A DNA stretch of 64,000 nt from Escherichia phage DCP80: the sequence record PQ671644.1, one strand, 5' to 3'. Under the pieces are notes generated by a model. That model was given only the letters and a program-made list of their open reading frames with translations. It had not been told where the DNA came from and searched no databases. Positions 4,933 through 24,911 of the stretch are shown here, one piece after another (position 1 is the stretch's first letter; the number at the start of each line of letters is the position of its first letter). Position numbers and translations under genes: made by a program.

Positions 4933-4935
4933 AAT

Positions 4936-5133: not shown

Positions 5134-5146
5134 AAAGCCTCATTAG

Positions 5147-5160
5147 GGGCCGAAGCCCCG
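5147..5160 (-). promoter_or_regulatory. C(UUCG)G tetraloop RNA hairpin downstream of rIIB
   Basis: GGGGC-TTCG-GCCCC on the coding strand; no U-run, so a structural or processing element rather than a clear terminator. Confidence 0.4.
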
Positions 5161-5166
5161 ATTAAT

Positions 5167-6141
5167 TTAGAATTGTTCAGTTACATCATCAAGGACCAGG
5201 TAACCACAGACCCTCATCTTACTATCACCATAATCCACCGGGATACTTACAACATCACGCGGGTGAACTTTACAGGATACGATGCGTCCATCACCATGAC
5301 CAAAACCACTTCCAATATAACCTTTAGAGCAAACATGCAACCCAGTTGAACAAGTTTGTTCGTCATTATCGTTCACACGAGAGCGCGGCATTTTAACATA
5401 TTGACCAGGGCTGTTGTCGAATGTATTTGAGTGACAATCTTTGTAAGTTGCACGAACCATTTTCCATGCGATGAAATGACCGTCTTCGGTGATTTCGATA
5501 TCGTTCGCAACCAGGAAGTCAAACAAACGCTGTACGGCTTTCTCACTCGGGTTCTCAAGGAGATTCTCAAGGAACGGCAGATAGAATTCAAAGTCTTCGC
5601 CATTTTGCATTGAATCAATGATACGAGTAACCAGGCCAGAGCGTAGTTCAATTCCCTGATAGAACAGACTACCACCTTCAATACGCACATCGCCTTTCAC
5701 ATATTTTTGTACTGCAGCTTTGATTGAGATAAACTCGATAGCATCATCAAAACGAGATTCAATCAATGCCTGAATAATATCATTAAAGTGTTTATGGTCT
5801 TTTGTGGCGTTCCAGACTGTGCGACCTTCAGTGATGGAAACGAATTTGCTTGATGCGTTCCATACGATTTCTGGGCGGCTACCGCCGATTGTATCTTCAA
5901 CGACCGGAACTTCAACCATTACTGTCACCGGAGCATTAATCGCCACACCAACAGCTGCTTTCAGTGATGCAGAAATGGTTTTAGATAATTTTGATTCTTT
6001 ATCATTTTTCAAAACACGGCGAATGGTGTCAACCGATACACCGAAATTATCTGCTAGTTCCTGTTGGGTATAATTACCAGTTTTATAAAGAGAAACTACC
6101 TGGTTTTGGTCAAATTTGGATAAAGCTTTAATATTAAACAT
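5167..6141 (-). CDS. rIIB: rIIB protein
   Basis: 324 aa; GNYTQQELA...VSVDTIRRVLKN...DVRIEGGSLFYQGIELRSGLV...FYLPFLENLLENPS...LFDFLVANDIEITEDG...QYVKMPRSRVNDNDEQTCSTGLHVCSKGYIGSGFGHGDGRIVSCKVHPRDVVSIPVDY matches recalled T4 rIIB; immediately downstream of rIIA. Confidence 0.85.
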   Translation of the reverse strand: MFNIKALSKFDQNQVVSLYKTGNYTQQELADNFGVSVDTIRRVLKNDKESKLSKTISASLKAAVGVAINAPVTVMVEVPVVEDTIGGSRPEIVWNASSKFVSITEGRTVWNATKDHKHFNDIIQALIESRFDDAIEFISIKAAVQKYVKGDVRIEGGSLFYQGIELRSGLVTRIIDSMQNGEDFEFYLPFLENLLENPSEKAVQRLFDFLVANDIEITEDGHFIAWKMVRATYKDCHSNTFDNSPGQYVKMPRSRVNDNDEQTCSTGLHVCSKGYIGSGFGHGDGRIVSCKVHPRDVVSIPVDYGDSKMRVCGYLVLDDVTEQF

Positions 6142-6142
6142 A

Positions 6143-8377: not shown

Positions 8378-8384
8378 GTTTTTC

Positions 8385-8594
8385 TCACTTTATGTTACGT
8401 TTGATTAATTCTGCAACTTCAAGAAGTTCATCCTTTGTTGCGGTGTCTGAAGCTATTTTAATACGGATTTCTTTGAAGCGTTCTTTAAACTCTTCAGCTT
8501 CTCTTATATCAAAAAAACGTTGGATAACACGGTATTCTTTATGGATAGCCTTATCAAACAGTTCCATATTAACTTTGAAGTTCGTCATTTCCAA
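8385..8594 (-). CDS. hypothetical protein
   Basis: 69-aa ORF between gene 39 region and rIIA; conserved in second copy. Confidence 0.5.
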   Translation of the reverse strand: MEMTNFKVNMELFDKAIHKEYRVIQRFFDIREAEEFKERFKEIRIKIASDTATKDELLEVAELIKRNIK

Positions 8595-8853
8595 TCTCCT
8601 GTAATATTTTTCTCATACTACGCATGGTAGCTTTATGTTCTTGGTCATGGTATATCAATGCAAGGAGTGCTTCAATTCGCTCCTCAGGGACCTTCTGGCC
8701 AGCCTTAATTCTCATGGCTGATGTTCTTACAGCTAACAAGTAACTTCGCTTCCTGTCGTTATCTGGGAGCCCCTGCACTTTCCTCAGACCTGCTTCCATA
8801 ATACACCGTGCGACATTTTGCAGATTAACTAAACTTCCGTCAGACATAATCAT
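8569..8853 (-). CDS. hypothetical protein
   Basis: 94-aa ORF; conserved in second copy at 11065-11349. Confidence 0.5.
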   Translation of the reverse strand: MIMSDGSLVNLQNVARCIMEAGLRKVQGLPDNDRKRSYLLAVRTSAMRIKAGQKVPEERIEALLALIYHDQEHKATMRSMRKILQEIGNDELQS

Positions 8854-8900
8854 ATTTTCACCTCAAAGACATCTTAACACACTTTTTGTGGCTTGTACAT

Positions 8901-8926
8901 AATAAAAAGGTCTCCCGAAGGAGACC
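8901..8926 (-). terminator. rho-independent terminator with UUCG tetraloop
   Basis: Minus strand GGTCTCC-TTCG-GGAGACC followed by TTTTTATT. Confidence 0.6.
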
Positions 8927-8936
8927 AAATTTTATT

Positions 8937-8993
8937 CTACTTTATAGACTTGACCATACGCCATGAAAGTTTCACCTTCCCAGGTTTCGCACG
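8937..8993 (-). CDS. 3' end of small ORF downstream of gene 39 (cut by gap)
   Basis: Encodes ...CETWEGETFMAYGQVYKVE, identical to the end of the ORF at 10842-10986. Confidence 0.4.
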   Translation of the reverse strand, partial: RAKPGKVKLSWRMVKSIK

Positions 8994-9040
8994 NNNNNNN
9001 NNNNNNNNNNNNNNNNNNNNNNNNNNNNNNNNNNNNNNNN
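8994..9040. other. assembly gap (N-run); junction between inverted homologous blocks
   Basis: 47 Ns; flanking sequence truncates gene 39 and its downstream ORF. Confidence 0.95.
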
Positions 9041-9044
9041 ATTC

Positions 9045-10793
9045 TTGTTTGGTGAATATAAGTCCGTAAGCTATGTTCCTGGTATTGTAAAACTGATTGA
9101 TGAAATTATCGATAACTCTGTTGATGAAGCAATTCGCACCAGTTTTAAATTCGCCAATAAAATTGATGTTCAAATTAAAGGCAATAAGGTTATCGTTGAA
9201 GATAACGGACGCGGTATTCCACAAGCAATGGTTGTCGACCAGACCGGTGAACAAATACCTGGCCCTGTCGCGGCATGGACTATTCCAAAGGCCGGTGGCA
9301 ACTTCGGTGATGATGCTGAGCGTAAAACTGGCGGGATGAATGGCGTTGGTAGTAGTTTAACCAACATCTTCTCTGTAACATTTGCGGGTGCAACTTGTGA
9401 TGGTGAGAATGAAATTGTCGTACGTTGTTCTAACGGAATGGAAAATAAGAGCTGGAATAAAGTTCCCGCTTCGAAGAAAGAACATGTGAAGGCTAAGACT
9501 GGTACGGTTGTTTCCTTTATTCCCGAATTCAGCCATTTTGAAACTAATGGACTCGACGAGACTTATGACGCCATCACATTGGACCGTCTACAGACTCTTG
9601 CGGTTGTTTATCCGGATATTCAGTTTACCTTTAATGGCAAAAAGGTTGATGGTAACTTCAAGAAGTTCGCCAAGCAATTTGGAACCGAAGTTGTTATCCA
9701 GGAAACTGATACGGTATCGATGGCCTTTACGACTAGCCCGGATGGTTTCCGTCAGTTGACTTATGTCAACAACATTCATACAAAGAATGGCGGACACCAC
9801 GTTGAATGTGTTATGGATGATATCTGTGAACATCTTCAACCAGCCATTAAACGCAAATATAAAGGCATCGAGGTGACCAAGGCACGAGTTAAAGAATGTC
9901 TCACCATGCTTATGTTCATCCGCGATATGAGCAACATGCGATTTGATTCCCAGACCAAAGAGCGATTGACTTCTCCGGCTGGTGAAATTCGAAATCACAT
10001 TAAGATTGATGCTAAGAAAATCGCGCAAGCTATTCTGAAAAATGAACCGCTGATTATGCCGATTGTTGAAGCTGCATTAGCCCGTAAATTGGCTGCAGAA
10101 AAAGCAGCAGAGACTAAAGCGAATAAGAAAGCTTCGAAGGCTAAGGTACAAAAGCATATCAAAGCCAACGAATGGGGTAACGACAAACTTGAAACGACTC
10201 TATTCCTGACCGAAGGGGATTCTGCAACGGGTCCATTTATCAAGGTTCGCGACCGTGAATTGCAAGGTGCTTATCCATTACGTGGTAAGTTTAAAAACAC
10301 ATGGGGTCTGAAAGCTGTTGACGTTATGAAGAACGCTGAAGCCTTTGATGTGTGTGCAATTACTGGGTTAACGATTGGACAACCGGCCAAGAATATGAAT
10401 TACCGAAACATTGCTATCATGACAGATGCGGATGTGGATGGTGTCGGTAGTATCTATCCATCGTTATTGGCGTTTTTCAGTAACTGGCCAGAGCTGTTCC
10501 ATGAAGGACGAATTCGCTTTGTGAAAACTCCTGTTATTATTGCGCAGCTCAAAGACAAACAAGAATGGTTCTATTCTCTTCCTGACTATGAAGAAGCTAA
10601 GGATAAACTTCCGAAGCACACCATCCGATATATCAAGGGGCTTGGTTCTCTGGAAGATTCCGAGTATAAACGCGTATTGCTCGAACCAGTATTCGAAGTT
10701 GTCCAATTGCCTGATAACTGGAAAGAACTGTTCGAAATGTTATTCGGTAAAGATTCACAACAGCGTAAAGATTGGATGAATGCGACGCTATAA
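9045..10793 (+). CDS. 39: DNA topoisomerase II large subunit gp39 (fused 39/60 form), N-terminus lost in gap
   Basis: 582 aa; VPGIVKLIDEIIDNSVDEAIRT...VEDNGRGIPQ...GPVAAWTIPKAGGNFGDD...GGMNGVGSSLTNIFS (GHKL ATPase) and AIMTDADVDGVGSI (Toprim) match recalled T4 gp39/gp60. Confidence 0.85.
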   Translation: MFGEYKSVSYVPGIVKLIDEIIDNSVDEAIRTSFKFANKIDVQIKGNKVIVEDNGRGIPQAMVVDQTGEQIPGPVAAWTIPKAGGNFGDDAERKTGGMNGVGSSLTNIFSVTFAGATCDGENEIVVRCSNGMENKSWNKVPASKKEHVKAKTGTVVSFIPEFSHFETNGLDETYDAITLDRLQTLAVVYPDIQFTFNGKKVDGNFKKFAKQFGTEVVIQETDTVSMAFTTSPDGFRQLTYVNNIHTKNGGHHVECVMDDICEHLQPAIKRKYKGIEVTKARVKECLTMLMFIRDMSNMRFDSQTKERLTSPAGEIRNHIKIDAKKIAQAILKNEPLIMPIVEAALARKLAAEKAAETKANKKASKAKVQKHIKANEWGNDKLETTLFLTEGDSATGPFIKVRDRELQGAYPLRGKFKNTWGLKAVDVMKNAEAFDVCAITGLTIGQPAKNMNYRNIAIMTDADVDGVGSIYPSLLAFFSNWPELFHEGRIRFVKTPVIIAQLKDKQEWFYSLPDYEEAKDKLPKHTIRYIKGLGSLEDSEYKRVLLEPVFEVVQLPDNWKELFEMLFGKDSQQRKDWMNATL

Positions 10794-10841
10794 ATAGATG
10801 TGGGAGAATATTCTCCCGCTACTAGGAGACAATATGACTAA

Positions 10842-10986
10842 ATACTGGATTACACTCGCTACCGGTGAATATGGTTTTCTCTGGGCAGAGAAAAAGCCTT
10901 TGTTTGCAGAATTTGTAACAATCACGTGCGAAACCTGGGAAGGTGAAACTTTCATGGCGTATGGTCAAGTCTATAAAGTAGAATAA
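10842..10986 (+). CDS. small hypothetical protein
   Basis: ATG at 10842 after AGGAGA RBS; preceded by 16-bp palindrome GGGAGAATATTCTCCC at 10802-10817. Confidence 0.4.
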
Positions 10987-10991
10987 AATTT

Positions 10992-11016
10992 GGTCTCCTT
11001 CGGGAGACCTTTTTAT
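10992..11016 (+). terminator. rho-independent terminator with UUCG tetraloop
   Basis: GGTCTCC-TTCG-GGAGACC followed by TTTTTATT. Confidence 0.6.
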
Positions 11017-11064
11017 TATGTACAAGCCACAAAAATTGTGTTAAGATGTCTTTGAGGTGAAAAT

Positions 11065-11349
11065 ATGATTATGTCTGACGGAAGTTTAGTTAATCTGCAG
11101 AATGTCGCACGGTGTATTATGGAAGCAGGCCTGAGGAAGGTACAGGAGCTCCCAGATAGCGACAGGAAGCGAAGTTACTTGTTAGCTGTAAGAACAGCAG
11201 CCATGAGCATTAAGGCTGGCCAGAAGGTCCCTGAGGAGCGAATTGAAGCACTTCTTGCATTGATATACCATGACCAAGAACATAAAGCTACCATGCGTAG
11301 TATGAGAAAAATATTACAGGAGATTGGAAATGACGAACTTCAAAGTTAA
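11065..11349 (+). CDS. hypothetical protein
   Basis: 94 aa, homolog of 8569-8853. Confidence 0.5.
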   Translation: MIMSDGSLVNLQNVARCIMEAGLRKVQELPDSDRKRSYLLAVRTAAMSIKAGQKVPEERIEALLALIYHDQEHKATMRSMRKILQEIGNDELQS

Positions 11350-11533
11350 TATGGAGCTGTTTGATAAAGCTGTTCATAAAGAATACCGCGTTATCCAACG
11401 ATTTTTTGATATAAGAGAAGCTGAAGAGTTTAAAGAACGCTTCAAAGAAATCCGTATTAAAATAGCTTCAGACACCGCAACAAAGGATGAACTTCTTGAA
11501 GTTGCAGAATTAATCAAACGTAACATAAAGTGA
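11324..11533 (+). CDS. hypothetical protein
   Basis: 69 aa, homolog of 8385-8594. Confidence 0.5.
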   Translation: MEMTNFKVNMELFDKAVHKEYRVIQRFFDIREAEEFKERFKEIRIKIASDTATKDELLEVAELIKRNIK

Positions 11534-11540
11534 GAAAAAC

Positions 11541-13775
11541 ATGATTTTAGAAACTGAAAAGGAAACAATCCTTGGTAATGGTGCCAAGGCATCAGCATTC
11601 ACAATCCAGGCATCTCCAAAGGTGTTTAAGATTCTGACCAGCGACCTTTATACAAACAAGGTGCGCGCGGTTGTTCGTGAGCTGATTACCAATATGATTG
11701 ATGCTCATATGCTCAATGGCTGTCAGGATAAATTCATTGTTCAAGCTCCTGGTGAACTGGACCCACGTTTTGTGTGTCGTGACTTTGGTCCAGGTATGAG
11801 TGATTTCCAGATTCGTGGTGATGAAAATACGCCAGGTCTGTATAACAGTTTCTTTGCATCATCCAAGGCTGAATCCAATGATTTTATTGGTGGCTTCGGC
11901 TTGGGTTCTAAATCTCCGTTTAGTTATACAGAGACGTTTAGCCTGATTTCATATCATGATGGACAAGTTAATGGTTATGTCGCTTATATGGACGGTGATG
12001 GTCCACAGATTAAGCCAACCTTTAGCGAACCAATGAAACCTGGTGACCGCACAGGGATTGAAGTTGTTGTCCCGGTTGATAGTAATGATTTCGGTAAGTT
12101 CCGTTATGAGATTGCATATATCATGCGTCCATTTGCTGGACTGGCTGAAGTGCAAGGCGTAGGCGAAATTAATTACTTCCCAGAATTTGATGATTATTAT
12201 GCTCCAGCGCGTATTAATTATAGCAGTCCAGAACGTTATGGACTTTATGCAATTTATGGTGGAATTGTTTATCCGATTGGTGATGGTTACACCAAGAAAA
12301 CCTGGATGACTGCCAAAAATGATGTTGTCTTTATTAAGTTCCCAATGGGTTCGCTGGATATTGCACCTTCTCGCGAAGCGTTATCACTGGACAAACGTAC
12401 GGTCGCAAATATCGTTGAACGTATTGAAGCCCTTGATAAGAAAGTCATGGAAGATGATTGTAAGAAATGGCAGGAATCAGAATGTCTCCGCCATACATAT
12501 CGCGAATTGCAGAATCTGAATTATGAAGCTCGTAATTTTCTGAAAGCTCGTAATGTTGAAACGAAATTTACGAAATCACAATTGACCTTTAACCAGATGT
12601 ACGAAATGTTCGAGCTGGACAAAGACCTTATTAATGCCGGGGTTGTCTATGATATCTATCGCGATACTCGTCTGAAACGTCTGCGTAACGCAAGCTCAAG
12701 CTCGAACACGGCAAGTCTGACGCGCATGTTTGGTATTCAGACTGATACCTTGAACATTGTTATTGATGATGCTAAAGGGCGAATTGCGATGATTCGTGGT
12801 ATCAGTTCAATGTTGTATGATACCAGCGCGAAAGCTAAAAAGCTTATTGCATCTGGTAAAGTCCCGACTCGTCAGGGTAGTAGTTTACTGTTTGTTGACC
12901 CAACCAGCGAAATTCAAACACGGTTGATGGTTCAACTCCAGGAACGATTTAAAGGCGATACGGTTAATATCTATCGTACGTCTGAACTGACTGCCCTTGT
13001 AAAAGACTGGATTCCGGTTGCTGACCCGAAAGCGCGCGTTAAGTCAAAGACTCCATCATTGATTCGTTGGACTAAAACTAATGGTCGCTGGCAGTCTGTT
13101 GAAGAATTTACATGTGCAGCTGATGCAGAGGAAATCGATGGTTATGCTGTATTCATTAACCGCAGTAGCATTTCCCCGTTGAATCAAGAATACGGCACCA
13201 CGACCTTCGGGACCCAGACATTGTGTAAACTGGCAAACCTGTTGGAAATCAATGAATTCTGTGTTATTCGTCCACAGCTTCAGAAAAAGGTTACCAAGCT
13301 GGCGCAGTGCGATTGTCTGATTGAAGCTGCAGTCAATCGTTATGTGGAATTGATTGATGCGGTTGATGCGGACCAGTACATTGCCGCTTCAAGCCGTTCG
13401 CGTTATTATATTCCTATCCTGTCTGAATATGCAGAACTGAATTTTATGTTCAAGTATTTTTATGCAAAAGATGTTCAGAAAGATGTGAATACTGACTATG
13501 CCGAACTAATGCAGTTCAATAAGTTCTTTGCTTATAACGCATATAACAGTGGAACAGTTGATAAGACCATGCAGGAAACATTGGTCCTTTGTAATAAGAT
13601 TTATGACGACCTGACCAAAAACGCTTCGGTAACAAGCGATAAAATGGTTTTTGAATTTGAAAAGAATCACCCGATTGTTTCACACTTTTTATATAACCGT
13701 AACGCTATGTCAACTGAACAAGTACAGAACGTTGCTCAAATCATGAAGGCCGTGGAAGCGGCCAATAAGGAATAA
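11541..13775 (+). CDS. rIIA: rIIA protein (second copy)
   Basis: 744 aa, near-identical to 6143-8377 with scattered substitutions. Confidence 0.9.
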   Translation: MILETEKETILGNGAKASAFTIQASPKVFKILTSDLYTNKVRAVVRELITNMIDAHMLNGCQDKFIVQAPGELDPRFVCRDFGPGMSDFQIRGDENTPGLYNSFFASSKAESNDFIGGFGLGSKSPFSYTETFSLISYHDGQVNGYVAYMDGDGPQIKPTFSEPMKPGDRTGIEVVVPVDSNDFGKFRYEIAYIMRPFAGLAEVQGVGEINYFPEFDDYYAPARINYSSPERYGLYAIYGGIVYPIGDGYTKKTWMTAKNDVVFIKFPMGSLDIAPSREALSLDKRTVANIVERIEALDKKVMEDDCKKWQESECLRHTYRELQNLNYEARNFLKARNVETKFTKSQLTFNQMYEMFELDKDLINAGVVYDIYRDTRLKRLRNASSSSNTASLTRMFGIQTDTLNIVIDDAKGRIAMIRGISSMLYDTSAKAKKLIASGKVPTRQGSSLLFVDPTSEIQTRLMVQLQERFKGDTVNIYRTSELTALVKDWIPVADPKARVKSKTPSLIRWTKTNGRWQSVEEFTCAADAEEIDGYAVFINRSSISPLNQEYGTTTFGTQTLCKLANLLEINEFCVIRPQLQKKVTKLAQCDCLIEAAVNRYVELIDAVDADQYIAASSRSRYYIPILSEYAELNFMFKYFYAKDVQKDVNTDYAELMQFNKFFAYNAYNSGTVDKTMQETLVLCNKIYDDLTKNASVTSDKMVFEFEKNHPIVSHFLYNRNAMSTEQVQNVAQIMKAVEAANKE

Positions 13776-13776
13776 T

Positions 13777-14754
13777 ATGTTTAATATCAAATGTATGTCT
13801 AAAGCCGAACAAGAACGAGTTGTCTCTCTTTATGAATCTGGTAACTATACGCAAGACGAACTTGCACTCGGTTTCGGCGTTTCGGTTGACACCATTCGTC
13901 GCGTTTTGAAAAATGACAAAGAATCAAAATTAGCTAAAACCATTTCTGCATCACTGAAAGCCGCTGTCGGGGTGGCGATTAATGCTCCAGTGACAGTAAC
14001 AGTTGAAGCCCCGGTTGAAGCCACAATCGGTGGAAGCCGCCCGGAAATCGTATGGAATGCATCAAGTAAATTCGTTTCCATTACTGAAGGTCGTACAGTC
14101 TGGAATGCAACAAAAGACCATAAACACTTTGATGATATTATTCAGGCACTCAAAGAATCTCGTTTTGATGATGCTATTGAGTATATCTCAATCAAAGCTG
14201 CAGTACAAAAATATGTGAAAGGCGATGTGCGTATTGAAGGTGGTAGTCTGTTCTATCAGGGAATTGAACTGCGCTCTGGCCTGGTTACTCGTATCATTGA
14301 TTCAATGCAAAATGGCGAAGACTTTGAATTCTATCTGCCATTCCTTGAGAATCTCCTTGAGAACCCGAGTGAGAAAGCCGTACAGCGTTTGTTTGACTTC
14401 CTGGTTGCGAACGATATCGAAATCACCGAAGACGGCCATTTCATCGCATGGAAAATGGTTCGTGCAACCTACAAAGATTGTCACTCAAACACATTCGACA
14501 ACAGCCCTGGCCAATATGTTAAAATGCCACGCTCTCGTGTGAATGACAATGACGAACAAACTTGTTCGACTGGTCTGCACGTTTGCTCTAAAGGCTATAT
14601 CGGAAGTGGTTTTGGTCATGGTGATGGACGCATCGTATCCTGTAAAGTTCACCCGCGTGATGTTGTAAGTATCCCGGTGGATTATTCCGATAGTAAGATG
14701 AGGGTTTGCGGTTACCTGGTTCTTGAAGATGTGACCGAACGTTTCAATGATTAA
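13777..14754 (+). CDS. rIIB: rIIB protein (second copy)
   Basis: 325 aa; conserved core as in 5167-6141, N-terminal third diverged. Confidence 0.85.
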   Translation: MFNIKCMSKAEQERVVSLYESGNYTQDELALGFGVSVDTIRRVLKNDKESKLAKTISASLKAAVGVAINAPVTVTVEAPVEATIGGSRPEIVWNASSKFVSITEGRTVWNATKDHKHFDDIIQALKESRFDDAIEYISIKAAVQKYVKGDVRIEGGSLFYQGIELRSGLVTRIIDSMQNGEDFEFYLPFLENLLENPSEKAVQRLFDFLVANDIEITEDGHFIAWKMVRATYKDCHSNTFDNSPGQYVKMPRSRVNDNDEQTCSTGLHVCSKGYIGSGFGHGDGRIVSCKVHPRDVVSIPVDYSDSKMRVCGYLVLEDVTERFND

Positions 14755-15238
14755 ACAAACAATTGCTAAAGATGGCTCGGCTCGTGGTATTGTCCACGGG
14801 CTAGGTCACACGCCTGAATACATTGTATGGATTGGCATGAAAGCTCGGTGTTGCAATCCAACACATATTAGTTATTCTCGATATGGCGGTCGGGGTATCA
14901 CTGTTTGCGATGAATGGCTGCATGATTTTGAAAGATTTTATACAGATATGGGGCCACGACCCACTGACAAACATCAACTTGACCGAACAGATAACGATAA
15001 AGGGTACTCTCCCGATAACTGCAGATGGGTTAGTCCAGGCGAGAATGCTTTAAATAAGCGCCCGTATAATAACAACAAGTCTGGATTTAAAGGAGTCTCG
15101 TTTGATAAACGAGCTTTGAATAAACCATGGCGAGCCACTATTATGCGAAATAAAAAACAAATTCAAGTCGGAGCTTTTGCAACTCCAGAAGAAGCAAATG
15201 AAGCTCGATTAAAATATATGGAAGAACACAATGTCTAA
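14747..15238 (+). mobile_element. free-standing HNH homing endonuclease with AP2-type DNA-binding domain
   Basis: 163 aa; HNH-like DRTDNDKGYSPDNCRWVSPGEN followed by AP2-like SGFKGVSFDKRALNKPWRATIMRNKKQIQVGAFATPEEANEARLKYMEEH; start overlaps rIIB stop (ATGATTAA); absent from the other copy. Confidence 0.7.
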
Positions 15239-15440
15239 AGAAATGTTAGGTTTCCAAGCACGTGTAGTTGAAGAACATGACCAGCTGGTTTTGAAAATTA
15301 ATGCTCTTGAAGAATTTATTAAGGGCGGAGTTTTTGAAACTCTCGATGCTCGTCAACAAGGTCTTTTGATTGCCCAGTTAGATGCAATGGGTGCATATGC
15401 TCATATACTGGCAACTCGTATCTCTTATTTTGGTGAATAA
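15231..15440 (+). CDS. hypothetical protein
   Basis: 69 aa, homolog of 4936-5133; start overlaps HNH stop. Confidence 0.5.
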   Translation: MSKEMLGFQARVVEEHDQLVLKINALEEFIKGGVFETLDARQQGLLIAQLDAMGAYAHILATRISYFGE

Positions 15441-15443
15441 ATT

Positions 15444-15713
15444 ATGATTAAGCATTTCAATGTGTCAGACCGTGACATCAAAGTTTCAAATCTCCGGGGT
15501 CATCATTATGCGGGAATAGTTTACTGCGGTAAGCTCATCAAGCATGAAGGTGATGTTCACTATGGTTGGTTGGAATGTGATGAAGTAGTTGTTGGGGAAT
15601 TCCCTGACCCGAATTCTGATACATTTGATGCTAATGACCGTTTGTATTATGGCGAGCTTCACATCCGTGGAATCGTCGGTATCGATGAGGTCGTAAATGA
15701 TTCAGAAGAGTAA
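15444..15713 (+). CDS. hypothetical protein
   Basis: 89 aa, homolog of 4663-4932. Confidence 0.5.
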   Translation: MIKHFNVSDRDIKVSNLRGHHYAGIVYCGKLIKHEGDVHYGWLECDEVVVGEFPDPNSDTFDANDRLYYGELHIRGIVGIDEVVNDSEE

Positions 15714-16290
15714 AACCTGGGAGCATTTGAAAAAGATGCCCTCCTTTCTTTATACGAAGGAAGACTTAACCCCCGAATCCCTACAAAAGATTGTAGACAC
15801 TGCCAGATATTCATTGCGTAAAGACCCAGGTCAGGACCGTGAGCAAGTCATGCAAAGATGTATGGTGGCCACAATGGCTGAACAAGCTATTGCTAAATGG
15901 ACCTCCGGTTTTTTATGTGGCGGTGATGAAGATTACGATAATCCTTATTCCTTTGCATTTGATGTAGTTTCGAAGGAAGGGGTGAGAATCGAAGTCAAGA
16001 CCCACCAGTCTGGGTCCAAATGGATATCCGTGCATACTGGCCACCAGGGCGATTATCCACATGGTTACGGGATTAATCTTGGTCCTTTTATGCAACACAA
16101 GCTTGCTGACCTTATGATTATGCTCGATGTAAAAGAGACTCTCAAAGGTTATAGATTTAAACCAAAATTCCTTGCTGGACCCGGTGCTTTCGTTCCTGAG
16201 TCTGGTCTTGTGCAGAAGTCACAAGGGGATGGCTGGTACCTCCGTTCTTGTTCAGAAGAAAAATTTCCCTATCACCGGTTTACAAGCTGA
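15697..16290 (+). CDS. hypothetical protein (197 aa)
   Basis: Homolog of 4086-4679. Confidence 0.55.
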   Translation: MIQKSKTWEHLKKMPSFLYTKEDLTPESLQKIVDTARYSLRKDPGQDREQVMQRCMVATMAEQAIAKWTSGFLCGGDEDYDNPYSFAFDVVSKEGVRIEVKTHQSGSKWISVHTGHQGDYPHGYGINLGPFMQHKLADLMIMLDVKETLKGYRFKPKFLAGPGAFVPESGLVQKSQGDGWYLRSCSEEKFPYHRFTS

Positions 16291-16337
16291 ACCAACTGTG
16301 TAATAATGTCCTCATACCAACAAATAAGGACATTATC

Positions 16338-16613
16338 ATGGAACACGTTACTACTCACAACATCAAACAAATTCTTATCCAAGCACTCAAAAACAACAAC
16401 ATCAATTTTCCAACCCATGAAATTTTTGATGTGGTATTCAACGAAGTCCAGGGTCAAGTTGCATATTATGACGTTATCGTTTATCTTTCAGAATTTGAAG
16501 TCTACCATCTGACTGAAATTGCTTTCTATCTCTATCGTGGGACTGCAGATTTTACTGGGGTCGTGAATGCAGTTGGCGCATATAAAGAAGTTAAAGAGCA
16601 AATGCACAATTAA
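16338..16613 (+). CDS. hypothetical protein
   Basis: Probable start MEHVTTHN after AAGGA RBS; homolog of 3763-4038. Confidence 0.45.
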   Translation: MEHVTTHNIKQILIQALKNNNINFPTHEIFDVVFNEVQGQVAYYDVIVYLSEFEVYHLTEIAFYLYRGTADFTGVVNAVGAYKEVKEQMHN

Positions 16614-16672
16614 TTAAAAAGTAGTGTACATCAGTATGGAGTCAGTGCATAATGATTCCATACTGAGTTACC
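16612..16672 (+). promoter_or_regulatory. early promoter / stem-loop cassette (PeSL-like)
   Basis: TGTACA 16625-16630, 17-nt spacer, CATAAT 16648-16653; CAGTATGGA 16632-16640 pairs with TCCATACTG 16657-16665. Confidence 0.45.
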
Positions 16673-16688
16673 AACCTGGAGAAACAAA

Positions 16689-16952
16689 ATGAAATTTAAA
16701 TTTTATTATATTAAGCATAAAGTTACTGGGGAGTTTATTGCATTTACAACTTCATCCAATAATCAAGGTGATACTTTTACTTCATTGTTCTTATCTAGAT
16801 GGGATTCAGACCAGCCTTATTTGTCCACAAAAGAGCATCTTCAACGTATGGCGAAGGGCGAGCTAAACGATTCTTGGGATAATATTGTGAATAATTGTAT
16901 CAAGAAAGCTATCCAAGAAAATCAACTTGAAATCATTGAGGTGGAATTGTGA
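16689..16952 (+). CDS. hypothetical protein, YYxKHKVTG family paralog (copy-2-specific)
   Basis: 87 aa MKFKFYYIKHKVTG...; tandem paralog of the next gene; not present at the equivalent site in copy 1. Confidence 0.5.
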   Translation: MKFKFYYIKHKVTGEFIAFTTSSNNQGDTFTSLFLSRWDSDQPYLSTKEHLQRMAKGELNDSWDNIVNNCIKKAIQENQLEIIEVEL

Positions 16953-17215
16953 ATATTAAATTATATTACGCCAAGCACAAAGTTACAGGTATGGTTGTTG
17001 CTGCTATGTATGACGCGTCAGGCGATGGTGATGATGTTATTACAGAGTTATCTCTTTCTGATTGTAAATTTCTTCGCCCGTTGGTTGCATCAAAGCGTGA
17101 TTTAAAAAAGCTTATTGATGGTAAGCTGGACAATATTGATGGTATAGATATTTTTTATGACCTCCGCGTCGCATTGTCTGATGGATTGATTGAAATCAAA
17201 GAGGTGATATTTTGA
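16949..17215 (+). CDS. hypothetical protein, YYxKHKVTG family
   Basis: 88 aa, homolog of 3252-3518. Confidence 0.5.
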   Translation: MNIKLYYAKHKVTGMVVAAMYDASGDGDDVITELSLSDCKFLRPLVASKRDLKKLIDGKLDNIDGIDIFYDLRVALSDGLIEIKEVIF

Positions 17216-17304
17216 GCAGCAAAACCTGGTGTCTTATCTGGATGTTGTGTATCCCAGTAATTTGCGTTTGTTTTAGTTTATTATTAATGAAACTTGCATA
17301 AAGA

Positions 17305-17332
17305 GTGTACATCTCCGGTGGTTGTAGTATAA
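17305..17332 (+). promoter_or_regulatory. early-type promoter
   Basis: GTGTACAT, 17-nt spacer, TATAAT; mirror of the copy-1 element near 3130-3160. Confidence 0.4.
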
Positions 17333-17486
17333 TGAACCTATCAACTACTGGAGATGATTATGAAAAAGTTACTTAAAGCCATTTGGAACATGTTTATACT
17401 GTTTGTTGTCCTGAGCATTTTCCCAATTGTTTTTATGATTGACCATGTACGTGTTTACTTTAACTATTTCTTTTGAGGATAATACT

Positions 17487-17633
17487 ATGATAGTTATGAA
17501 AAAGTTTAAAGAATATCATTGCTATGAATGTGGCAAAAAGATTGATTCTATTCATTCATTAAACGTCTTTTCTTTTGATAATTTAAACTATGCACACATT
17601 TGGTGCCTTCGTGGAATGACTAAATTTAACTGA
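17487..17633 (+). CDS. small zinc-ribbon-like protein (copy-2-specific cassette)
   Basis: 48 aa MIVMKKFKEYHCYECGKK...HIWC (CxxC...HxxC spacing); flanked by duplicated GAGGATAATA(C/T)TATG junction. Confidence 0.4.
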   Translation: MIVMKKFKEYHCYECGKKIDSIHSLNVFSFDNLNYAHIWCLRGMTKFN

Positions 17634-17643
17634 GGATAATATT

Positions 17644-17790
17644 ATGAATTACAATTCACACTTTCAGAAATCCAATCGCCGCTTTGACTTTATGTTCAAG
17701 TTTATTGTGGCAATGATTATCCTGATTTTCATTGGTGCCATTGCAATGATTGGTTTCCAGGTCTGGATTGCTGCTGAAGTATTCACACAA
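17644..17790 (+). CDS. small membrane protein, 3' end lost in gap
   Basis: MNYNSHFQKSNRRFDFMFKF..., homolog of 2773-2979. Confidence 0.45.
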
Positions 17791-17800
17791 NNNNNNNNNN
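17791..17800. other. assembly gap (N-run)
   Basis: 10 Ns; gene content changes abruptly across it. Confidence 0.95.
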
Positions 17801-18762: not shown

Positions 18763-19782
18763 ATGAAAATTTTAAATTTAGGTGATTGGCACTTGGGTGT
18801 CAAAGCTGACGACCCATGGGCTCAAAACATTCAACGCGATGGTATTTTACAGGCGATTGCGTATTCCAAAGCGAATGGGATTAAAGTCTGGATTCAATAT
18901 GGCGATATTTTTGACGTCCGTAAGGCCGTAACGCATAAGACGATGGAATTCAGCCGTGAGATTATGGAACTCCTTCGTGAAGCAGGAATTACTATGCACA
19001 CGATAGTCGGGAACCATGACATGAATCTGAAGAATAAGATTCATCCTAATGCTATCACTGAACTCCTGAATAAGTATGACCATGTTAAAATCTACGACAA
19101 GCCAACGACTGTTGATTTTGACGGTTGTCAGATTGATATGATTCCATGGATGTGTGACGAGAACGCAACTGACATTCACCAACATATCAAAACTTCTGGT
19201 GCTGAATATTGCATCGGTCACTGGGAATTAACCGGGTTTTATTTCTATAAAGGATTGAAATCCCACGGACTTGAGCCTGATTTCCTTAAGAAGTACAAGC
19301 AAGTTTGGTCTGGTCACTTCCACACAATTTCAGAAGCTGCGAACGTTAAGTACATAGGAACACCATGGACATTAACAGCAGGTGATGAGAACGACCCACG
19401 CGGGTTCTGGGAATTTGATACCGAAACCGAAGAGATGAAATTTATTCCGAATGAAACCACCTGGCATCGGAAGATTTTTTATCCAAACGAAACTATTAAC
19501 TACGACGACTTCAAAGACTTATCAGTCCGTGTTATTGTAGAAAAAGTCGATAAAGACCTGACCAAGTTCGAATCCGAATTAGAAAAGCGTGTGCATGAAT
19601 TGCGTGTTGTCAATAAGGTTGATAACAGTGTTGATACGACTGACTCCGAAGAAGAGTTAGACATAAAACGCTTAACTGATATGATGGCAGAATATATTGA
19701 TGCATTACCTGACACCAATGAGAAAGAATCAAAAGCTCTTAAAGCATTGGCCAACAAATTATATCTTGAGGTGCAACCGTGA
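18763..19782 (+). CDS. 47: recombination endonuclease subunit gp47 (Mre11-like)
   Basis: MKILNLGDWHLGVKADD...IQYGDIFDVRKA...HTIVGNHD...GHWELTGFYFYKGLKSHGLEPDFLKKYKQVWSGHFHTISEAANVKYIGTPWTLTAGDENDPRGFW matches recalled T4 gp47; track ORF starts at upstream TTG. Confidence 0.85.
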   Translation: MKILNLGDWHLGVKADDPWAQNIQRDGILQAIAYSKANGIKVWIQYGDIFDVRKAVTHKTMEFSREIMELLREAGITMHTIVGNHDMNLKNKIHPNAITELLNKYDHVKIYDKPTTVDFDGCQIDMIPWMCDENATDIHQHIKTSGAEYCIGHWELTGFYFYKGLKSHGLEPDFLKKYKQVWSGHFHTISEAANVKYIGTPWTLTAGDENDPRGFWEFDTETEEMKFIPNETTWHRKIFYPNETINYDDFKDLSVRVIVEKVDKDLTKFESELEKRVHELRVVNKVDNSVDTTDSEEELDIKRLTDMMAEYIDALPDTNEKESKALKALANKLYLEVQP

Positions 19783-20042
19783 AACTTTATGATTTTAATG
19801 AAGCGGGGCTTGAACATATCCGCGAATGTGATGTGGTTGACGACGATAATCAACCGAATACTATTAAGTATTGGTTTGAAGCTATCACTGACCGGGAAAC
19901 CGGTCAACTTATCAAAGTCTATGTAGTCACCGATTGGGCCGTAGAATTTAGTTTTAATGTAATGGAAGATGATACTCCAGAAACATTAATTCATATGGCT
20001 GAATCATGCATCAAGGATGCTTATAATGATGAAAATGTATAA
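19779..20042 (+). CDS. hypothetical protein
   Basis: 87-aa ORF between 47 and 46, overlapping stop/start. Confidence 0.45.
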   Translation: MKLYDFNEAGLEHIRECDVVDDDNQPNTIKYWFEAITDRETGQLIKVYVVTDWAVEFSFNVMEDDTPETLIHMAESCIKDAYNDENV

Positions 20043-20237
20043 ACATGATTTTCATATTGGCGATGGCTGGTTCGGTAATGTAGAATGGGACGTGGATGGT
20101 TCTTGGTATACCGGAACTATGTATGTCACTTCTGAATATTCTGAAGGTGTTTCATGGGCCATGGAACTTGACGACGTGTTTGCTTCTTCCGAAGAAATGC
20201 TAGAATATGCTGAACAAACAATTCGTGAGAACAATAC

Positions 20238-21920
20238 ATGAAAACGTTTAAGCTAAAGAAAGTAACGTATAAAAATATTATGTCTGTAGGCCAGCAGCCT
20301 ATTACAATCCAACTTGATAAGGTCCAAAAGACCTTAGTCACTGGTAAAAATGGCGCTGGTAAATCGACATTCCTTGAAGCTGTTACTTTTGCTTTATTTG
20401 GTAAGCCTTTTCGTGATGTTAAGAAAGGGCAATTAATTAACTCAAGTAACAAGAAAGACCTTTTGGTCGAACTGTGGATGGAATATGATGGAAAAGAATA
20501 CTATATCAAGCGCGGGCAAAAACCCAACGTTTTTGAAATCTCTTGTGGCGGTGAACGTCTTGATGAATCTGCCAGCAGTAAAGACTTCCAAGCGGAATTT
20601 GAACAGCTCATCGGAATGTCCTATGCGAGCTTCAAACAGATTGTCGTACTCGGCACAGCTGGATATACCCCTTTTATGGGCCTATCCACTCCTGCAAGAA
20701 GAAAACTTGTCGAAGACCTTTTAGAGGTTTCTGTACTGGCCGATATGGATAAGCTGAACAAATCTCTTATCCGTGAAGTCAATAGTCAAATCCAGGTGAT
20801 GGATGTGCAGCATGACGGGATTGTTCAACAGATTAAAATCTATCAGGACAACGAAGACCGTCAAAGAAAATTATCAGGCGATAATCTGTTGCGACTGCAA
20901 ACGATGTATGATGAACTTGCCACAGAAGCACGTGGAATCAAGGCAACTATCGAAGAAGCAACGACAAGACTGACCGAGATAATCTTGGGAGAAGACCCTG
21001 AGCACGAACTCACAAAGTTAAAGCAGGAATCATTCCTGATTAAATCGAAGATTGACGATTATCGAAAGGTTGTTGGTCTGTACGAGAAAGGTGGTTGTTG
21101 TCAGACCTGTGCTAGTCAGTTGCATCCAGGAGACCCTATTGTCGCCAGGATTGAGTCAAAGATTGAAGAATGTAATGCATCGGCTGATAAGCATAAAGCT
21201 CGCCAGAATGCTGTTCAGGAGCAATTTGATGCGTATACCAAGGCAAGACAAAACCAGCGTACAATAGCTCAAGACATTCAAACCAAGAAACAAACCTTAG
21301 TCCAGACTGTCGAAAAAGCTAAAAAGGTTAAAGCATTAATCGAGCAAGCCAAGTCAGAATTCATCGACCATGCAGCAGACATTAAAATGCTTCAAGACCA
21401 GCTTGATAAAATAGTCAAACAGAAATCTGACCTTGTGATGGAAAAATATCAACGTGGCATCCTAACGGATATGTTGAAAGATTCCGGTATCAAAGGTGCG
21501 ATTATTAAGAAATATATTCCTATCTTTAATAAGCAGATAAACGCTTACCTTAAAGTTATGGAAGCTGATTATAGTTTTACGTTAGATGAAGAGTTCAACG
21601 AAACGATTAAATCTCGTGGACGTGAAGACTTCAGCTATGCATCATTTAGCCAGGGTGAAAAAGCTCGTATCGATATTGCATTGCTGTTTACATGGCGTGA
21701 TATTGCTGCGAAAGTATCTGGTGTTAATATTAACACCTTGATTCTGGATGAAGTTTTTGACTCGGCCACCGATGTAGAGGGTGTTAAAGCAATTGCTACC
21801 ATCCTGAACAAATTGGAAGACACCAACATCTTTATTATCAGTCACCGAGACCATGACCCGGAAGCATACGGGCAACATCTCCAGATGAAAAAAGTTGGTC
21901 GATTCACTGTTATGGAATAA
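20238..21920 (+). CDS. 46: recombination endonuclease subunit gp46 (Rad50/SbcC-like ATPase)
   Basis: 560 aa; Walker A GKNGAGKST, ...GKPFRDVKKGQLINSSNKK..., C-terminal FSQGEKARIDIALLFTWRDIA...LILDEVFD match recalled T4 gp46. Confidence 0.9.
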   Translation: MKTFKLKKVTYKNIMSVGQQPITIQLDKVQKTLVTGKNGAGKSTFLEAVTFALFGKPFRDVKKGQLINSSNKKDLLVELWMEYDGKEYYIKRGQKPNVFEISCGGERLDESASSKDFQAEFEQLIGMSYASFKQIVVLGTAGYTPFMGLSTPARRKLVEDLLEVSVLADMDKLNKSLIREVNSQIQVMDVQHDGIVQQIKIYQDNEDRQRKLSGDNLLRLQTMYDELATEARGIKATIEEATTRLTEIILGEDPEHELTKLKQESFLIKSKIDDYRKVVGLYEKGGCCQTCASQLHPGDPIVARIESKIEECNASADKHKARQNAVQEQFDAYTKARQNQRTIAQDIQTKKQTLVQTVEKAKKVKALIEQAKSEFIDHAADIKMLQDQLDKIVKQKSDLVMEKYQRGILTDMLKDSGIKGAIIKKYIPIFNKQINAYLKVMEADYSFTLDEEFNETIKSRGREDFSYASFSQGEKARIDIALLFTWRDIAAKVSGVNINTLILDEVFDSATDVEGVKAIATILNKLEDTNIFIISHRDHDPEAYGQHLQMKKVGRFTVME

Positions 21921-22146
21921 TGCTTTAAACAAGGATGTTATAATAGAGGCTATTATGGCTGACTTCTTAACCGGGCAGCATTTACTGGCTGTCCCTGAAA
22001 TTAAACGGTATGTGTTAGTTAATACCTTTTCGAAAGATGAACACCTTGTTACTGAACGTGACTTACAAAACGCTTTCGGTGAAGAATATGTTAAAATAAT
22101 CGCGAACAGACACAATGCCTGGTTCGCATATGAATACTTTGATTAA
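21895..22146 (+). CDS. hypothetical protein
   Basis: 83-aa ORF between 46 and 45. Confidence 0.4.
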   Translation: MVDSLLWNNALNKDVIIEAIMADFLTGQHLLAVPEIKRYVLVNTFSKDEHLVTERDLQNAFGEEYVKIIANRHNAWFAYEYFD

Positions 22147-22578: not shown

Positions 22579-22608
22579 TTAATTTTGATTTGAATAAAAG
22601 GTAATTAA

Positions 22609-23304: not shown

Positions 23305-23307
23305 TAA

Positions 23308-23325
23308 ATGGGGCTTCGGCCCCAT
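23308..23325 (+). promoter_or_regulatory. C(UUCG)G tetraloop RNA hairpin between genes 45 and 44
   Basis: ATGGGGC-TTCG-GCCCCAT, no U-run. Confidence 0.45.
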
Positions 23326-23360
23326 GGAGTACAAAGTAGAAACTAATATGAGGAAAATAT

Positions 23361-24910: not shown

Positions 24911-24911
24911 A

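What the first reader, a model, noticed from the sequence alone, without database searches (positions are those of the whole stretch)
14747..15238. HNH-AP2 homing endonuclease present in only one of the two rIIB downstream junctions
In copy 2 a 163-aa ORF with an HNH-like motif (DRTDNDKGYSPDNCRWVSPGEN) and a C-terminal AP2-type domain sits between rIIB and the next gene, its ATG overlapping the rIIB stop and its stop overlapping the next ATG. In copy 1 the same junction (5134-5166) is a 33-bp spacer holding only a GGGGC-TTCG-GCCCC hairpin. This is the footprint expected of a free-standing homing endonuclease captured in a presence/absence polymorphism. The rIIB gene next to it is also more diverged between copies than rIIA, consistent with co-conversion, although that divergence is concentrated at the N-terminus.
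Basis: partly seen in the sequence, partly recalled or inferred. Interest (0 to 1): 0.75.

Follow-up and report, generated by a model that had tools for sequence, protein, structure and literature searches.

The report
Mobile endonuclease gene beside phage rIIB
A small selfish gene, very probably a DNA-cutting "homing endonuclease", sits just after the rIIB gene in one of two co-assembled T4-like coliphage strains and is missing from the other; this is a clean but ordinary example of a well-known kind of phage parasite, and the gene is already annotated in public phage genomes.

Summary
In detail: a 163-aa ORF (14747-15238) lies between rIIB and denB.1, overlapping both, and a 33-bp hairpin spacer occupies that site at 5134-5166. 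The "two copies" are not a duplication. The window is 11 contigs joined by N-runs, from at least two Gaprivervirus (VR7/SP18-like) strains about 96% identical.

The ORF is 100% identical to proteins of phages TH54 and MN01 and 98.8% to VR7 ORF292c, which RefSeq calls "HNH endonuclease". About 28 other matching records lack it and keep a conserved empty site.

Its 492 nt are identical in 8 of 10 carrier genomes whose flanks differ by 5-7%. Only the last ~60 bp of rIIB travel with it. Five relatives (64-70% identical) sit at the rIIB 3' end in other T4-like phages, and a 39% relative lies inside a group I intron.

The C-terminal AP2 fold is confirmed. The N-terminal domain matches no Pfam HNH model and has Arg where the catalytic His should be. 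Its only structural match is PacI, a His-less HNH enzyme that uses a tyrosine; Tyr87 is invariant.

Verdict: a free-standing homing endonuclease gene of the atypical "IPA-HNH"/AP2 type, in a recent spread. Cleavage is untested. Low to moderate interest.

The parts
14747..15238 (+). Free-standing homing endonuclease gene (HEG), 163 aa. It is identical to the TH54 and MN01 proteins and 98.8% identical to VR7ORF292c (YP_004063973.1).
   Evidence: ORF list and translation. PHROG 374 'HNH endonuclease', E=7.9e-59. tblastn against phages. The exact protein occurs on 8 contigs, always between rIIB and denB.1.
14795..15061 (+). N-terminal nuclease-like domain (residues ~17-105). Motif: YGGRGI.VC..W..F..DMG.RP...H.LDR.DN...Y.P.NCRW....(E/Q)N..N. 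Arg80 sits at the canonical His position; Tyr87, Asn91 and Asn103 are invariant.
15080..15229 (+). C-terminal AP2-type DNA-binding domain (residues ~112-161).
14686..14746 (+). HEG-linked haplotype block at the 3' end of rIIB, the probable co-conversion tract. It changes the rIIB C-terminus from ...DDVTEQF* to ...EDVTERFND*.
   Evidence: The fixed carrier/non-carrier differences in the flanks lie only at 14686, 14687, 14733 and 14736, and the alleles are unalignable over 14738-46. Within 60 bp of the junction, diversity among carriers is 0.7-1.9%, against 6-18% among non-carriers and 16-21% between the groups. Beyond 60 bp there is no differentiation.
13777..14754 (+). rIIB of the HEG+ strain (contig 9041-17790).
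   Evidence: PHROG 609 'RIIB lysis inhibitor', E=5e-103. VR7 annotation.
15231..15440 (+). denB.1 of the HEG+ strain. The insert supplies a new upstream ATG (MSKE extension) that overlaps the HEG stop. The ancestral ATG is at 15243.
   Evidence: Sequence. Pfam PF21825 E=4e-19. Junction alignment.
5134..5174 (-). Empty (HEG-less) site in the second strain: the last 8 nt of rIIB plus the 33-bp spacer. It holds a C(UUCG)G hairpin at 5146-5159 and the denB.1 Shine-Dalgarno GAGG. It is the presumed homing target region.
   Evidence: Sequence. It is near-identical in 10 HEG-less genomes. The hairpin folds as predicted and no T-run follows it.
5167..6141 (-). rIIB of the HEG-less strain (contig 1-8993).
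8994..9040 (.). N-run separating the two contigs that carry the two alleles.

Best explanation
The ORF is a free-standing homing endonuclease gene of the atypical HNH + AP2 class, named IPA-HNH by Barth et al. 2023. It belongs to a clade that lives specifically at the 3' end of rIIB in T4-like phages.

Inferred mechanism:
- The gene is co-transcribed with rIIB and is translated at a low level by coupling to the rIIB stop codon.
- In a mixed infection, the AP2 domain docks the protein on the HEG-less allele. The target probably lies in or next to the conserved rIIB 3' end and the GC-rich hairpin spacer.
- The N-terminal beta-beta-alpha-metal domain nicks or cuts that allele. Because the canonical His is replaced by Arg80, catalysis would be PacI-like: invariant Tyr87 in the omega loop acts as base or nucleophile, and Asp79 and Asn103 hold the metal.
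- Phage recombination repair (UvsX pathway) then copies the gene, plus about 60 bp of adjacent rIIB sequence, from the HEG+ genome.
- In the HEG+ allele the hairpin spacer is deleted and the rIIB 3' end is recoded, which would make it immune to cutting.
- The insert carries its own replacement start signal for denB.1, so the host genes keep working.

Shown here: the architecture, the polymorphism, the identical insert in diverged backgrounds, the short linked tract, the locus specificity of the clade, and an intron-borne relative.

Inferred only: cleavage itself, the target position, the Tyr mechanism and the immunity.
For: 1. Polymorphism at one exact site. Five carriers among sequenced phages and the window share identical junctions, and 10 non-carriers share a conserved empty site.

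2. Recent horizontal spread. The 492-nt gene is 100.00% identical in 8 of 10 carrier genomes (USA, Bangladesh, five sequencing runs, this window) and 99.2% in VR7. In the same genomes the flanks are only 95.0% identical (left, 60-500 bp) and 93.4% (right, 0-200 bp). Carriers are not each other's closest relatives in rIIA: copy 2 is closest to the non-carrier CJ20 at 97.8%.

3. A short linked tract of ~60 bp on the rIIB side only.

4. Locus specificity. All five nearest relatives (64-70% aa identity: Morganella phage MP1 and four metagenomic T4-like contigs) also overlap the rIIB stop codon, although their rIIB genes differ in length from 313 to 433 aa.

5. A family member with 39% identity (E=4e-40) that keeps the same motif lies inside a group I intron (Rfam RF00028, 60.9 bits) that splits the endolysin of Staphylococcus phage Lacachita. 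This is the classic homing-endonuclease setting.

6. Protein evidence. PHROG HNH families score down to E=8e-59. The AP2 fold is confirmed. The N-terminal domain matches only PacI. R80, Y87, N91 and N103 are invariant in 121 of 121 sequences. The ORF is homologous to ICP1 gp59, a founding IPA-HNH member (E=3e-6; PMC10448857).

7. The PacI precedent for a His-less, Tyr-using HNH enzyme is described in PMC5714182 and PMC4081073.
Against: - I found no report of any member of this family shown to cut DNA; none came up in the papers searched and read here.
- The canonical general-base His is absent, and no Pfam or NCBIfam nuclease model hits.
- Proteins that combine a CapR zinc finger with AP2 (CasPRs) act as non-cleaving DNA-binding silencers (bioRxiv 10.64898/2026.02.23.707548). 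Streptococcus prophage homologs of this ORF carry such a zinc finger.
- An identical insert in diverged backgrounds could also come from ordinary recombination spreading a beneficial gene.
- The linked tract is short and one-sided.
Confidence: 0.7

Rival explanations
1. The protein is a sequence-specific DNA-binding protein without nuclease activity, for example a transcriptional silencer or anti-defence factor descended from a homing endonuclease. It would spread among Gapriverviruses by ordinary homologous recombination because it benefits the phage.
For: The catalytic His is missing in the whole family and no nuclease model hits. The AP2 fold is the best-supported part of the protein. CapR+AP2 proteins (CasPRs) silence cas genes by binding alone (bioRxiv 10.64898/2026.02.23.707548), and homologs P0015, P0030 and P0046 carry a CxCxxC...CxC finger in front of the same two domains. 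The gene lies in an early host-takeover region (rIIB-denB-ndd).
Against: R80, Y87, N91 and N103 are invariant and D79 nearly so, in a beta-beta-alpha element whose only fold match is an active nuclease with the same His-to-Tyr arrangement. The clade is tied to one exact insertion point across very different T4-like phages. One member is intron-encoded. The insert removes a conserved hairpin and recodes the adjacent 60 bp, as expected if a target is being destroyed. I could not show that CasPRs retain this middle domain.
Confidence: 0.17
2. The gene is a dead or dying homing endonuclease relic. It once homed but is now inactive, persists by vertical descent, and is occasionally moved by recombination.
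For: Phage 212 carries a diverged copy (95.7% identity) with a 2-nt insertion that breaks the frame. Only about 4 of ~30 sequenced Gapriverviruses carry the gene. Gain-decay-loss cycles are typical of these elements (PMC2248197).
Against: Eight carrier genomes have a fully intact and nucleotide-identical copy in backgrounds that differ by 5-7%, which points to very recent spread rather than slow decay. All conserved family residues are intact in the window ORF.
Confidence: 0.1
3. The presence/absence difference is an assembly artefact, or a duplication with a deletion within one genome.
For: The window is a patchwork of contigs with N-gaps.
Against: Both alleles exist intact in independently sequenced complete phage genomes, with exactly the same junctions.
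Confidence: 0.02

Closest known systems
[quoted passage not shown] 2023, PMC10448857), e.g. Vibrio phage ICP1 gp59
   Same: Both have an N-terminal HNH-related domain too divergent for Pfam HNH_3 and a C-terminal AP2 domain. Both are free-standing genes next to conserved phage genes. The ORF is directly homologous to gp59 (27% identity over 115 aa, E=3e-6), and gp59 also lacks the His (QLDK...VYCPEYCR).
   Different: The paper states that T4 has no IPA-HNH genes, whereas this clade lives in T4-like phages at rIIB. The protein is much shorter than gp59 (163 aa against 272 aa). Identity to gp59 is low, so this is a separate subfamily. IPA-HNH activity itself is only predicted.
Classical HNH(HNN)-AP2 homing endonucleases (Magnani et al. 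2004; RB49 ORF040c, RB43 ORF027c, Xanthomonas phage Xp10/OP1 genes; PMC1524935, PMC2248197)
   Same: Nuclease domain followed by AP2; free-standing; variable presence among related phages; found in T4-like phages.
   Different: Those proteins have a Pfam-detectable HNH/HNH_3 domain with the conserved Asp-His pair. Here the position is Asp-Arg, and no HNH model hits the ORF or 64 homologs.
Restriction endonuclease PacI (PDB 3m7k/3ldy)
   Different: PacI is a homodimeric 8-bp restriction enzyme with two Cys4 zinc sites and no AP2 domain. Here only three conserved Cys (35, 54, 92) are present. Similarity is at fold level only (Foldseek E=1.3), and residue equivalence was not verified.
Free-standing Seg and Mob homing endonucleases of phage T4 ('intronless homing', PMC2988022)
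   Same: Intergenic insertion between conserved genes, presence/absence among relatives, co-conversion of flanking sequence, and dependence on mixed infection and recombination repair.
   Different: The nuclease family differs (GIY-YIG or canonical HNH). T4 enzymes often cut hundreds of bp from their gene and drag long tracts, whereas here the linked tract is only ~60 bp on one side.
CasPR anti-CRISPR silencers (CapR zinc finger + AP2; bioRxiv 10.64898/2026.02.23.707548)
   Same: Both have an AP2 DNA-binding domain. Gram-positive prophage homologs of this ORF add a CapR-like CxCxxC...CxC finger.
   Different: CasPRs bind DNA and block transcription without cutting. The window ORF has no zinc finger. 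Whether CasPRs contain the PacI-like domain was not tested because no CasPR sequence was available.

Membership tests
HNH / His-Me finger nucleases (canonical, Pfam HNH, HNH_3 etc.) | Match to a curated HNH-type profile | tested here: not met
   No Pfam HNH-type hit at E<=1 for the ORF and none in 64 homologs at E<=0.01. No NCBIfam hit. Only PHROG families labelled 'HNH endonuclease' match.
HNH / His-Me finger nucleases (canonical, Pfam HNH, HNH_3 etc.) | General-base histidine at the end of beta-strand 1 (the D-H of HNH_3) | tested here: not met
   The position is Arg80 in 121 of 121 family members. The nearby His76 is present in only 81 of 121.
HNH / His-Me finger nucleases (canonical, Pfam HNH, HNH_3 etc.) | Beta-beta-alpha-metal fold with Asn and metal-ligand residues | tested here: inconclusive
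PacI-like His-less HNH (group 20 of Jablonska et al. 2017) | Tyrosine in the omega loop replacing the catalytic His | tested here: inconclusive
   Tyr87 lies between the two strands and is invariant.
PacI-like His-less HNH (group 20 of Jablonska et al. 2017) | Two Cys4 zinc sites flanking the finger | tested here: not met
   Only Cys35, Cys54 and Cys92 are conserved, and no second site is apparent.
AP2/ERF DNA-binding domain (PF00847) | Profile match above Pfam's gathering score | tested here: not met
   21.9 bits against a cut-off of 33.3, E=2e-4, residues 112-155.
AP2/ERF DNA-binding domain (PF00847) | Three-stranded sheet packed on a helix; homology seen at family level | tested here: met
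IPA-HNH homing endonuclease genes (Barth et al. 2023) | N-terminal HNH-related domain missed by Pfam HNH_3, a C-terminal AP2 domain, and homology to ICP1 gp59/gp115-116/gp209 | tested here: met
   Architecture. BLASTP to ICP1 gp59 gives E=3e-6 across the N-terminal domain into AP2.
Homing endonuclease gene (functional class) | Presence/absence at one precise site in otherwise collinear relatives | tested here: met
Homing endonuclease gene (functional class) | Element much less diverged than its flanks (recent horizontal spread), with co-converted flanking tract | tested here: met
   0 differences in 492 nt in 8 genomes whose flanks differ by 5-7%. A 60-bp linked tract lies on the rIIB side.
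Homing endonuclease gene (functional class) | Site-specific cleavage of the empty allele and super-Mendelian inheritance | not testable with these tools
   This needs purified protein and phage crosses.

The most novel reading that the evidence does not exclude
This ORF may represent a very large (more than 6,700 proteins), biochemically uncharacterised family of homing endonucleases. They would cut DNA with a PacI-like, histidine-less active site (Arg80/Tyr87/Asn103) guided by an AP2 domain. The same scaffold, with a CapR zinc finger added, may have given rise to non-cutting anti-CRISPR silencers (CasPRs) in Gram-positive prophages. The rIIB-associated clade in culturable coliphages (VR7 against VR20, VR25 or SP18) would then be the easiest system in which to prove the chemistry and the homing.
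Probability: 0.35. Interest if true: 0.55.

Novelty: new member of a known kind. Interest (0 to 1): 0.3.

Why it matters
There is little surprise here for phage biologists. Free-standing homing endonuclease genes are a textbook feature of T4-like phages, and this exact gene is already annotated in VR7.

The finding does have modest value in four respects:
- It documents a very clean, apparently ongoing spread: identical DNA in genomes from several continents whose flanks differ by 5-7%.
- It shows that a whole clade of these genes is specific for the rIIB 3' end.
- It places the IPA-HNH type in T4-like phages, although T4 itself is reported to lack it.
- It points to an untested His-less, Tyr-based HNH chemistry in a family of thousands of phage proteins.

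It also shows that the window is a multi-strain contig concatenation. That affects every other 'duplicate copy' finding made on this window.

Tried and rejected
- A sequence search of the PDB with the single protein gave only noise (NEDD4, SusG at E>0.3). With the family profile only AP2 proteins appeared and no nuclease.
- NCBIfam gave no hit.
- Foldseek on the N-terminal model gave nothing significant; PacI ranked first at E=1.3.
- I looked for the gene's own promoter, a T4 late promoter (TATAAATA) or a terminator near the gene. Nothing exceeded chance, and there is no late-promoter motif within 3 kb.
- RNA folds of the two HEG+ junctions are no more stable than shuffled sequence.
- I tried to read the PacI structure paper and Magnani et al. 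2004. Neither is held.
- I tried to link the ORF to CasPR proteins. The preprint gives only an accession (QDA75636.1), so the sequence could not be compared. tblastn with the Streptococcus homolog did not list Listeria phages among the top hits.
- I considered that the rIIB N-terminal divergence reflects co-conversion. This was rejected because it does not segregate with the gene.
- I considered a within-genome inverted duplication. This was rejected because of the N-runs and the mapping to VR7.
- None of the public contigs carrying the gene is the source of the window; the best matches are ~95-96% identical.

Full report
**What is in the sequence**

The ORF at 14747-15238 (+) encodes 163 aa. 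Its ATG overlaps the last codons of rIIB (13777-14754), read as ATGATTAA. Its TAA overlaps an ATG at 15231 that opens the next gene, denB.1.

On the other allele, rIIB (5167-6141, -) and denB.1 (4936-5133, -) are separated by a 33-bp spacer, 5134-5166. The spacer holds GGGGC-TTCG-GCCCC at 5146-5159. By alignment, 502 bp (14741-15242) replace 41 bp (5134-5174).

**What the window is**

A self-comparison shows several blocks present twice at about 96% identity, in direct or inverted order. Mapping on the complete genome of Escherichia phage vB_EcoM_VR7 (Gaprivervirus, a T4-like coliphage) shows that the window is a patchwork of 5-9 kb pieces from distant parts of that genome.

The breakpoints coincide exactly with ten runs of N, 316 N in all. 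The 11 segments are ordered by decreasing length. The window is thus a concatenation of contigs from an assembly that contained at least two related strains. 'Copy 1' (contig 1-8993) and 'copy 2' (contig 9041-17790) are alleles of two co-occurring phages, not a duplication. This is in fact the natural setting for a homing polymorphism.

**Is the polymorphism real outside this window?**

Yes. The 1.9-kb region matches 37 phage records.
- Four phages (TH54, MN01, VR7, phage 212) carry the gene. About 28 of the other matching records lack it.
- The protein is 100% identical in TH54 and MN01 and 98.8% identical in VR7. There RefSeq already calls it 'HNH endonuclease' (VR7ORF292c, YP_004063973.1).
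- The exact protein is also found on five contigs from public sequencing runs, always in the order gp39-rIIA-rIIB-ORF-denB.1-denB.
- In a 15-sequence alignment, all carriers share the same two junctions. All ten non-carriers share a nearly invariant empty site...GAACAATTCTAAATTAATCGGGGCTTCGGCCCCTAATGAGGCTTT|ATG.

**Signature of mobility**

The 492 nt of the gene are 100.00% identical in 8 of 10 carrier genomes. They are 99.2% identical in VR7, and 95.7% with a frame-breaking 2-nt insertion in phage 212. In the same ten genomes the flanks are only 95.0% identical at 60-500 bp to the left and 93.4% at 0-200 bp to the right. At flank-like divergence about 25 differences per pair would be expected in the gene (my arithmetic). 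Two of the five run-derived contigs (SRR25010926, SRR25011057) may be the same strain, so the number of independent genomes may be seven.

Carriers are not each other's nearest relatives in neighbouring genes. The rIIA of copy 2 is closest to the non-carrier CJ20, at 97.8%.

Fine mapping shows a linked haplotype only in the last ~60 bp of rIIB:
- Diversity among carriers is 0.7-1.9%.
- Diversity among non-carriers is 6-18%.
- Divergence between the two groups is 16-21%.
- Beyond 60 bp the groups are indistinguishable.
- To the right of the insert there is no differentiation at all.

The fixed differences lie at 14686, 14687, 14733 and 14736, and the alleles cannot be aligned over 14738-46. Together these change the rIIB C-terminus from DDVTEQF* to EDVTERFND*.

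The strongly diverged rIIB N-terminus (84% between the two alleles) is a mosaic hot spot in all Gapriverviruses and does not segregate with the gene. The carrier TH54 has the copy-1 type, at 96.9%.

**Locus specificity**

The five closest relatives have 64-70% amino-acid identity. They are Morganella phage MP1 and four metagenomic contigs. All sit directly after rIIB and overlap its stop codon, in T4-like phages whose rIIB genes are 313-433 aa long and whose downstream genes differ. The rIIB C-terminus is well conserved among them (VHP(R/K)DVVSIP.DY..SKMR..GY.VL). A conserved coding target at the rIIB 3' end is therefore the simplest explanation. This is an inference.

**The protein**

The C-terminal third is an AP2 domain.
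- Pfam scores it below threshold (21.9 against 33.3 bits).
- The family profile finds plant AP2 structures (WRI1, E=1e-7).
- 26 of 64 homologs pass PF00847 at E<=0.01.

The N-terminal two-thirds match PHROG 'HNH endonuclease' families (E=8e-59) but no Pfam or NCBIfam nuclease model, either in this protein or in 64 homologs.

In 121 family members R80, Y87, N91, W94 and N103 are invariant, D79 is D or E in 119, and no sequence has His at position 80.

PacI is the known HNH enzyme that lacks the His. It uses a tyrosine of the omega loop, with Asp and Asn on the metal (PMC5714182, PMC4081073). Tyr87 lies in that loop. I therefore propose a PacI-like mechanism, but residue equivalence was not verified.

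The architecture and the failure of Pfam HNH_3 fit the 'IPA-HNH' homing endonuclease genes defined in Vibrio phage ICP1 (PMC10448857). The ORF is directly homologous to ICP1 gp59 (E=3e-6). That paper notes that T4 has none; this clade shows that T4-like phages do.

**Independent support that the family homes**

A relative with the same motif (39% identity, E=4e-40) is encoded inside a group I intron (RF00028, 60.9 bits). The intron interrupts the endolysin gene of Staphylococcus phage Lacachita.

**Expression and cost to the host**

I found no promoter, late-promoter motif or terminator specific to the gene. The overlaps suggest translational coupling to rIIB, and of denB.1 to the insert.

The insert deletes the C(UUCG)G hairpin and the denB.1 Shine-Dalgarno sequence of the empty site, and supplies a new ATG (MSKE extension). 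The hairpin is not followed by a T-run, so it is more likely an mRNA hairpin than a terminator.

**Rivals**

1. *A non-cutting DNA-binding protein.* This is plausible because the His is missing, and because CapR+AP2 proteins (CasPRs) silence cas genes by binding alone (bioRxiv 10.64898/2026.02.23.707548). Streptococcus prophage homologs carry a CapR-like zinc finger in front of the same two domains. Against it stand the invariant putative active-site residues, the locus specificity, the intron-borne member and the destruction of the empty site. I give it about 0.17.
2. *A decaying relic.* Phage 212 shows decay, but eight identical intact copies argue for recent spread. I give it about 0.1.
3. 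*An assembly artefact.* This is excluded by the complete genomes.

**Verdict**

This is a free-standing homing endonuclease gene of a known general kind (HNH-related + AP2), already present and annotated in public genomes. It is caught here as a two-strain polymorphism. The interesting residue is mechanistic: a His-less, possibly Tyr-dependent nuclease domain shared by thousands of uncharacterised phage proteins. Cleavage, target and immunity remain to be shown. Interest 0.3.

Noticed in passing
window 8994-9040, 17791-17800, 24743-24760, 30887-30940, 36511-36520, 41760-41800, 47031-47080, 52286-52300, 57005-57040, 61506-61540: Ten N-runs split the window into 11 contigs ordered by decreasing length. 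The contigs map to scattered parts of a Gaprivervirus genome, and several regions are present twice at ~96% identity (2833-8993 with 10925-17790; 18987-24365 with 47081-52285; 24894-30121 with 41801-47030). The window is a multi-strain contig concatenation, so any 'duplication' or 'inverted repeat' finding on it should be re-read as strain variation.
   Followed up: yes
window 13777-14100 (and 5818-6141 on the - strand): The first ~100 codons of rIIB (an HTH_7-like region, Pfam E=3e-6 to 8e-5) are a hypervariable mosaic among Gapriverviruses: 76-98% nt identity in several haplotypes that do not follow the rest of the gene or the endonuclease gene.
   Followed up: partly
window 14686-14697: Among phages that lack the endonuclease gene, this stretch of rIIB exists in sharply different synonymous versions (GGT GAT AGT AAG against AAC GAT TCC AAA), giving 18% diversity in a 30-bp bin. 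It could reflect selection for cleavage-resistant target variants, or old recombination.
   Followed up: no
window 15444-15713 (copy 1: 4663-4932, - strand): The gene after denB.1 (DUF7418) occurs in two allelic forms in the genus, 89 aa and 106 aa, with only ~53% nt identity. Both window strains have the 89-aa form.
   Followed up: partly
window 3518-3678 versus 16695-16949: A second non-homologous replacement distinguishes the two strains, downstream of denB. The ORF 16689-16952 (87 aa) is present in one strain, and a shorter unrelated segment (ORF 3529-3684, 51 aa) in the other.
   Followed up: no
window 3682-3766, 16610-16705, 26974-27040, 32204-32286, 41021-41074, 43885-43951, 61754-61873, 62376-62454: A dispersed ~55-90-bp repeat, 75-84% identical between copies, lies in intergenic regions on several contigs. 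It may be a regulatory cassette of the type described in T4-like phages.
   Followed up: no
window 24908-24952, 25269-25313, 41815-41859, 42176-42220: A 45-bp direct repeat (93-96% identical) occurs twice, 361 bp apart, in each of the two strain copies of this region.
   Followed up: no
L008 (Escherichia phage 212) 3474-3967: The endonuclease gene of phage 212 is 95.7% identical and has a 2-nt insertion, so it is annotated only as a truncated ORF. This is either a decaying copy or a sequencing error.
   Followed up: partly
window 15231-15440 and 4936-5133: denB.1 belongs to Pfam PF21825 (crAss001_48-related; labelled 'Sequestin' in the precomputed annotations). This small protein family is shared with crAss-like phages.
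   Followed up: no
P0015, P0030, P0046; Streptococcus phages Javan129/132/446/496: Gram-positive prophage homologs of the ORF carry an extra N-terminal CxCxxC...CxC zinc finger resembling the CapR domain, and keep the putative nuclease residues. They may be related to the CasPR anti-CRISPR silencers described in a 2026 preprint.
   Followed up: partly
window 16248-16613 (copy 1: 3763-4128, - strand): The small ORF after denB corresponds to VR7ORF288c, which is annotated as similar to a putative HNH nuclease of Staphylococcus phage G1. It is present in both strains and could be a remnant of another endonuclease gene.
   Followed up: no
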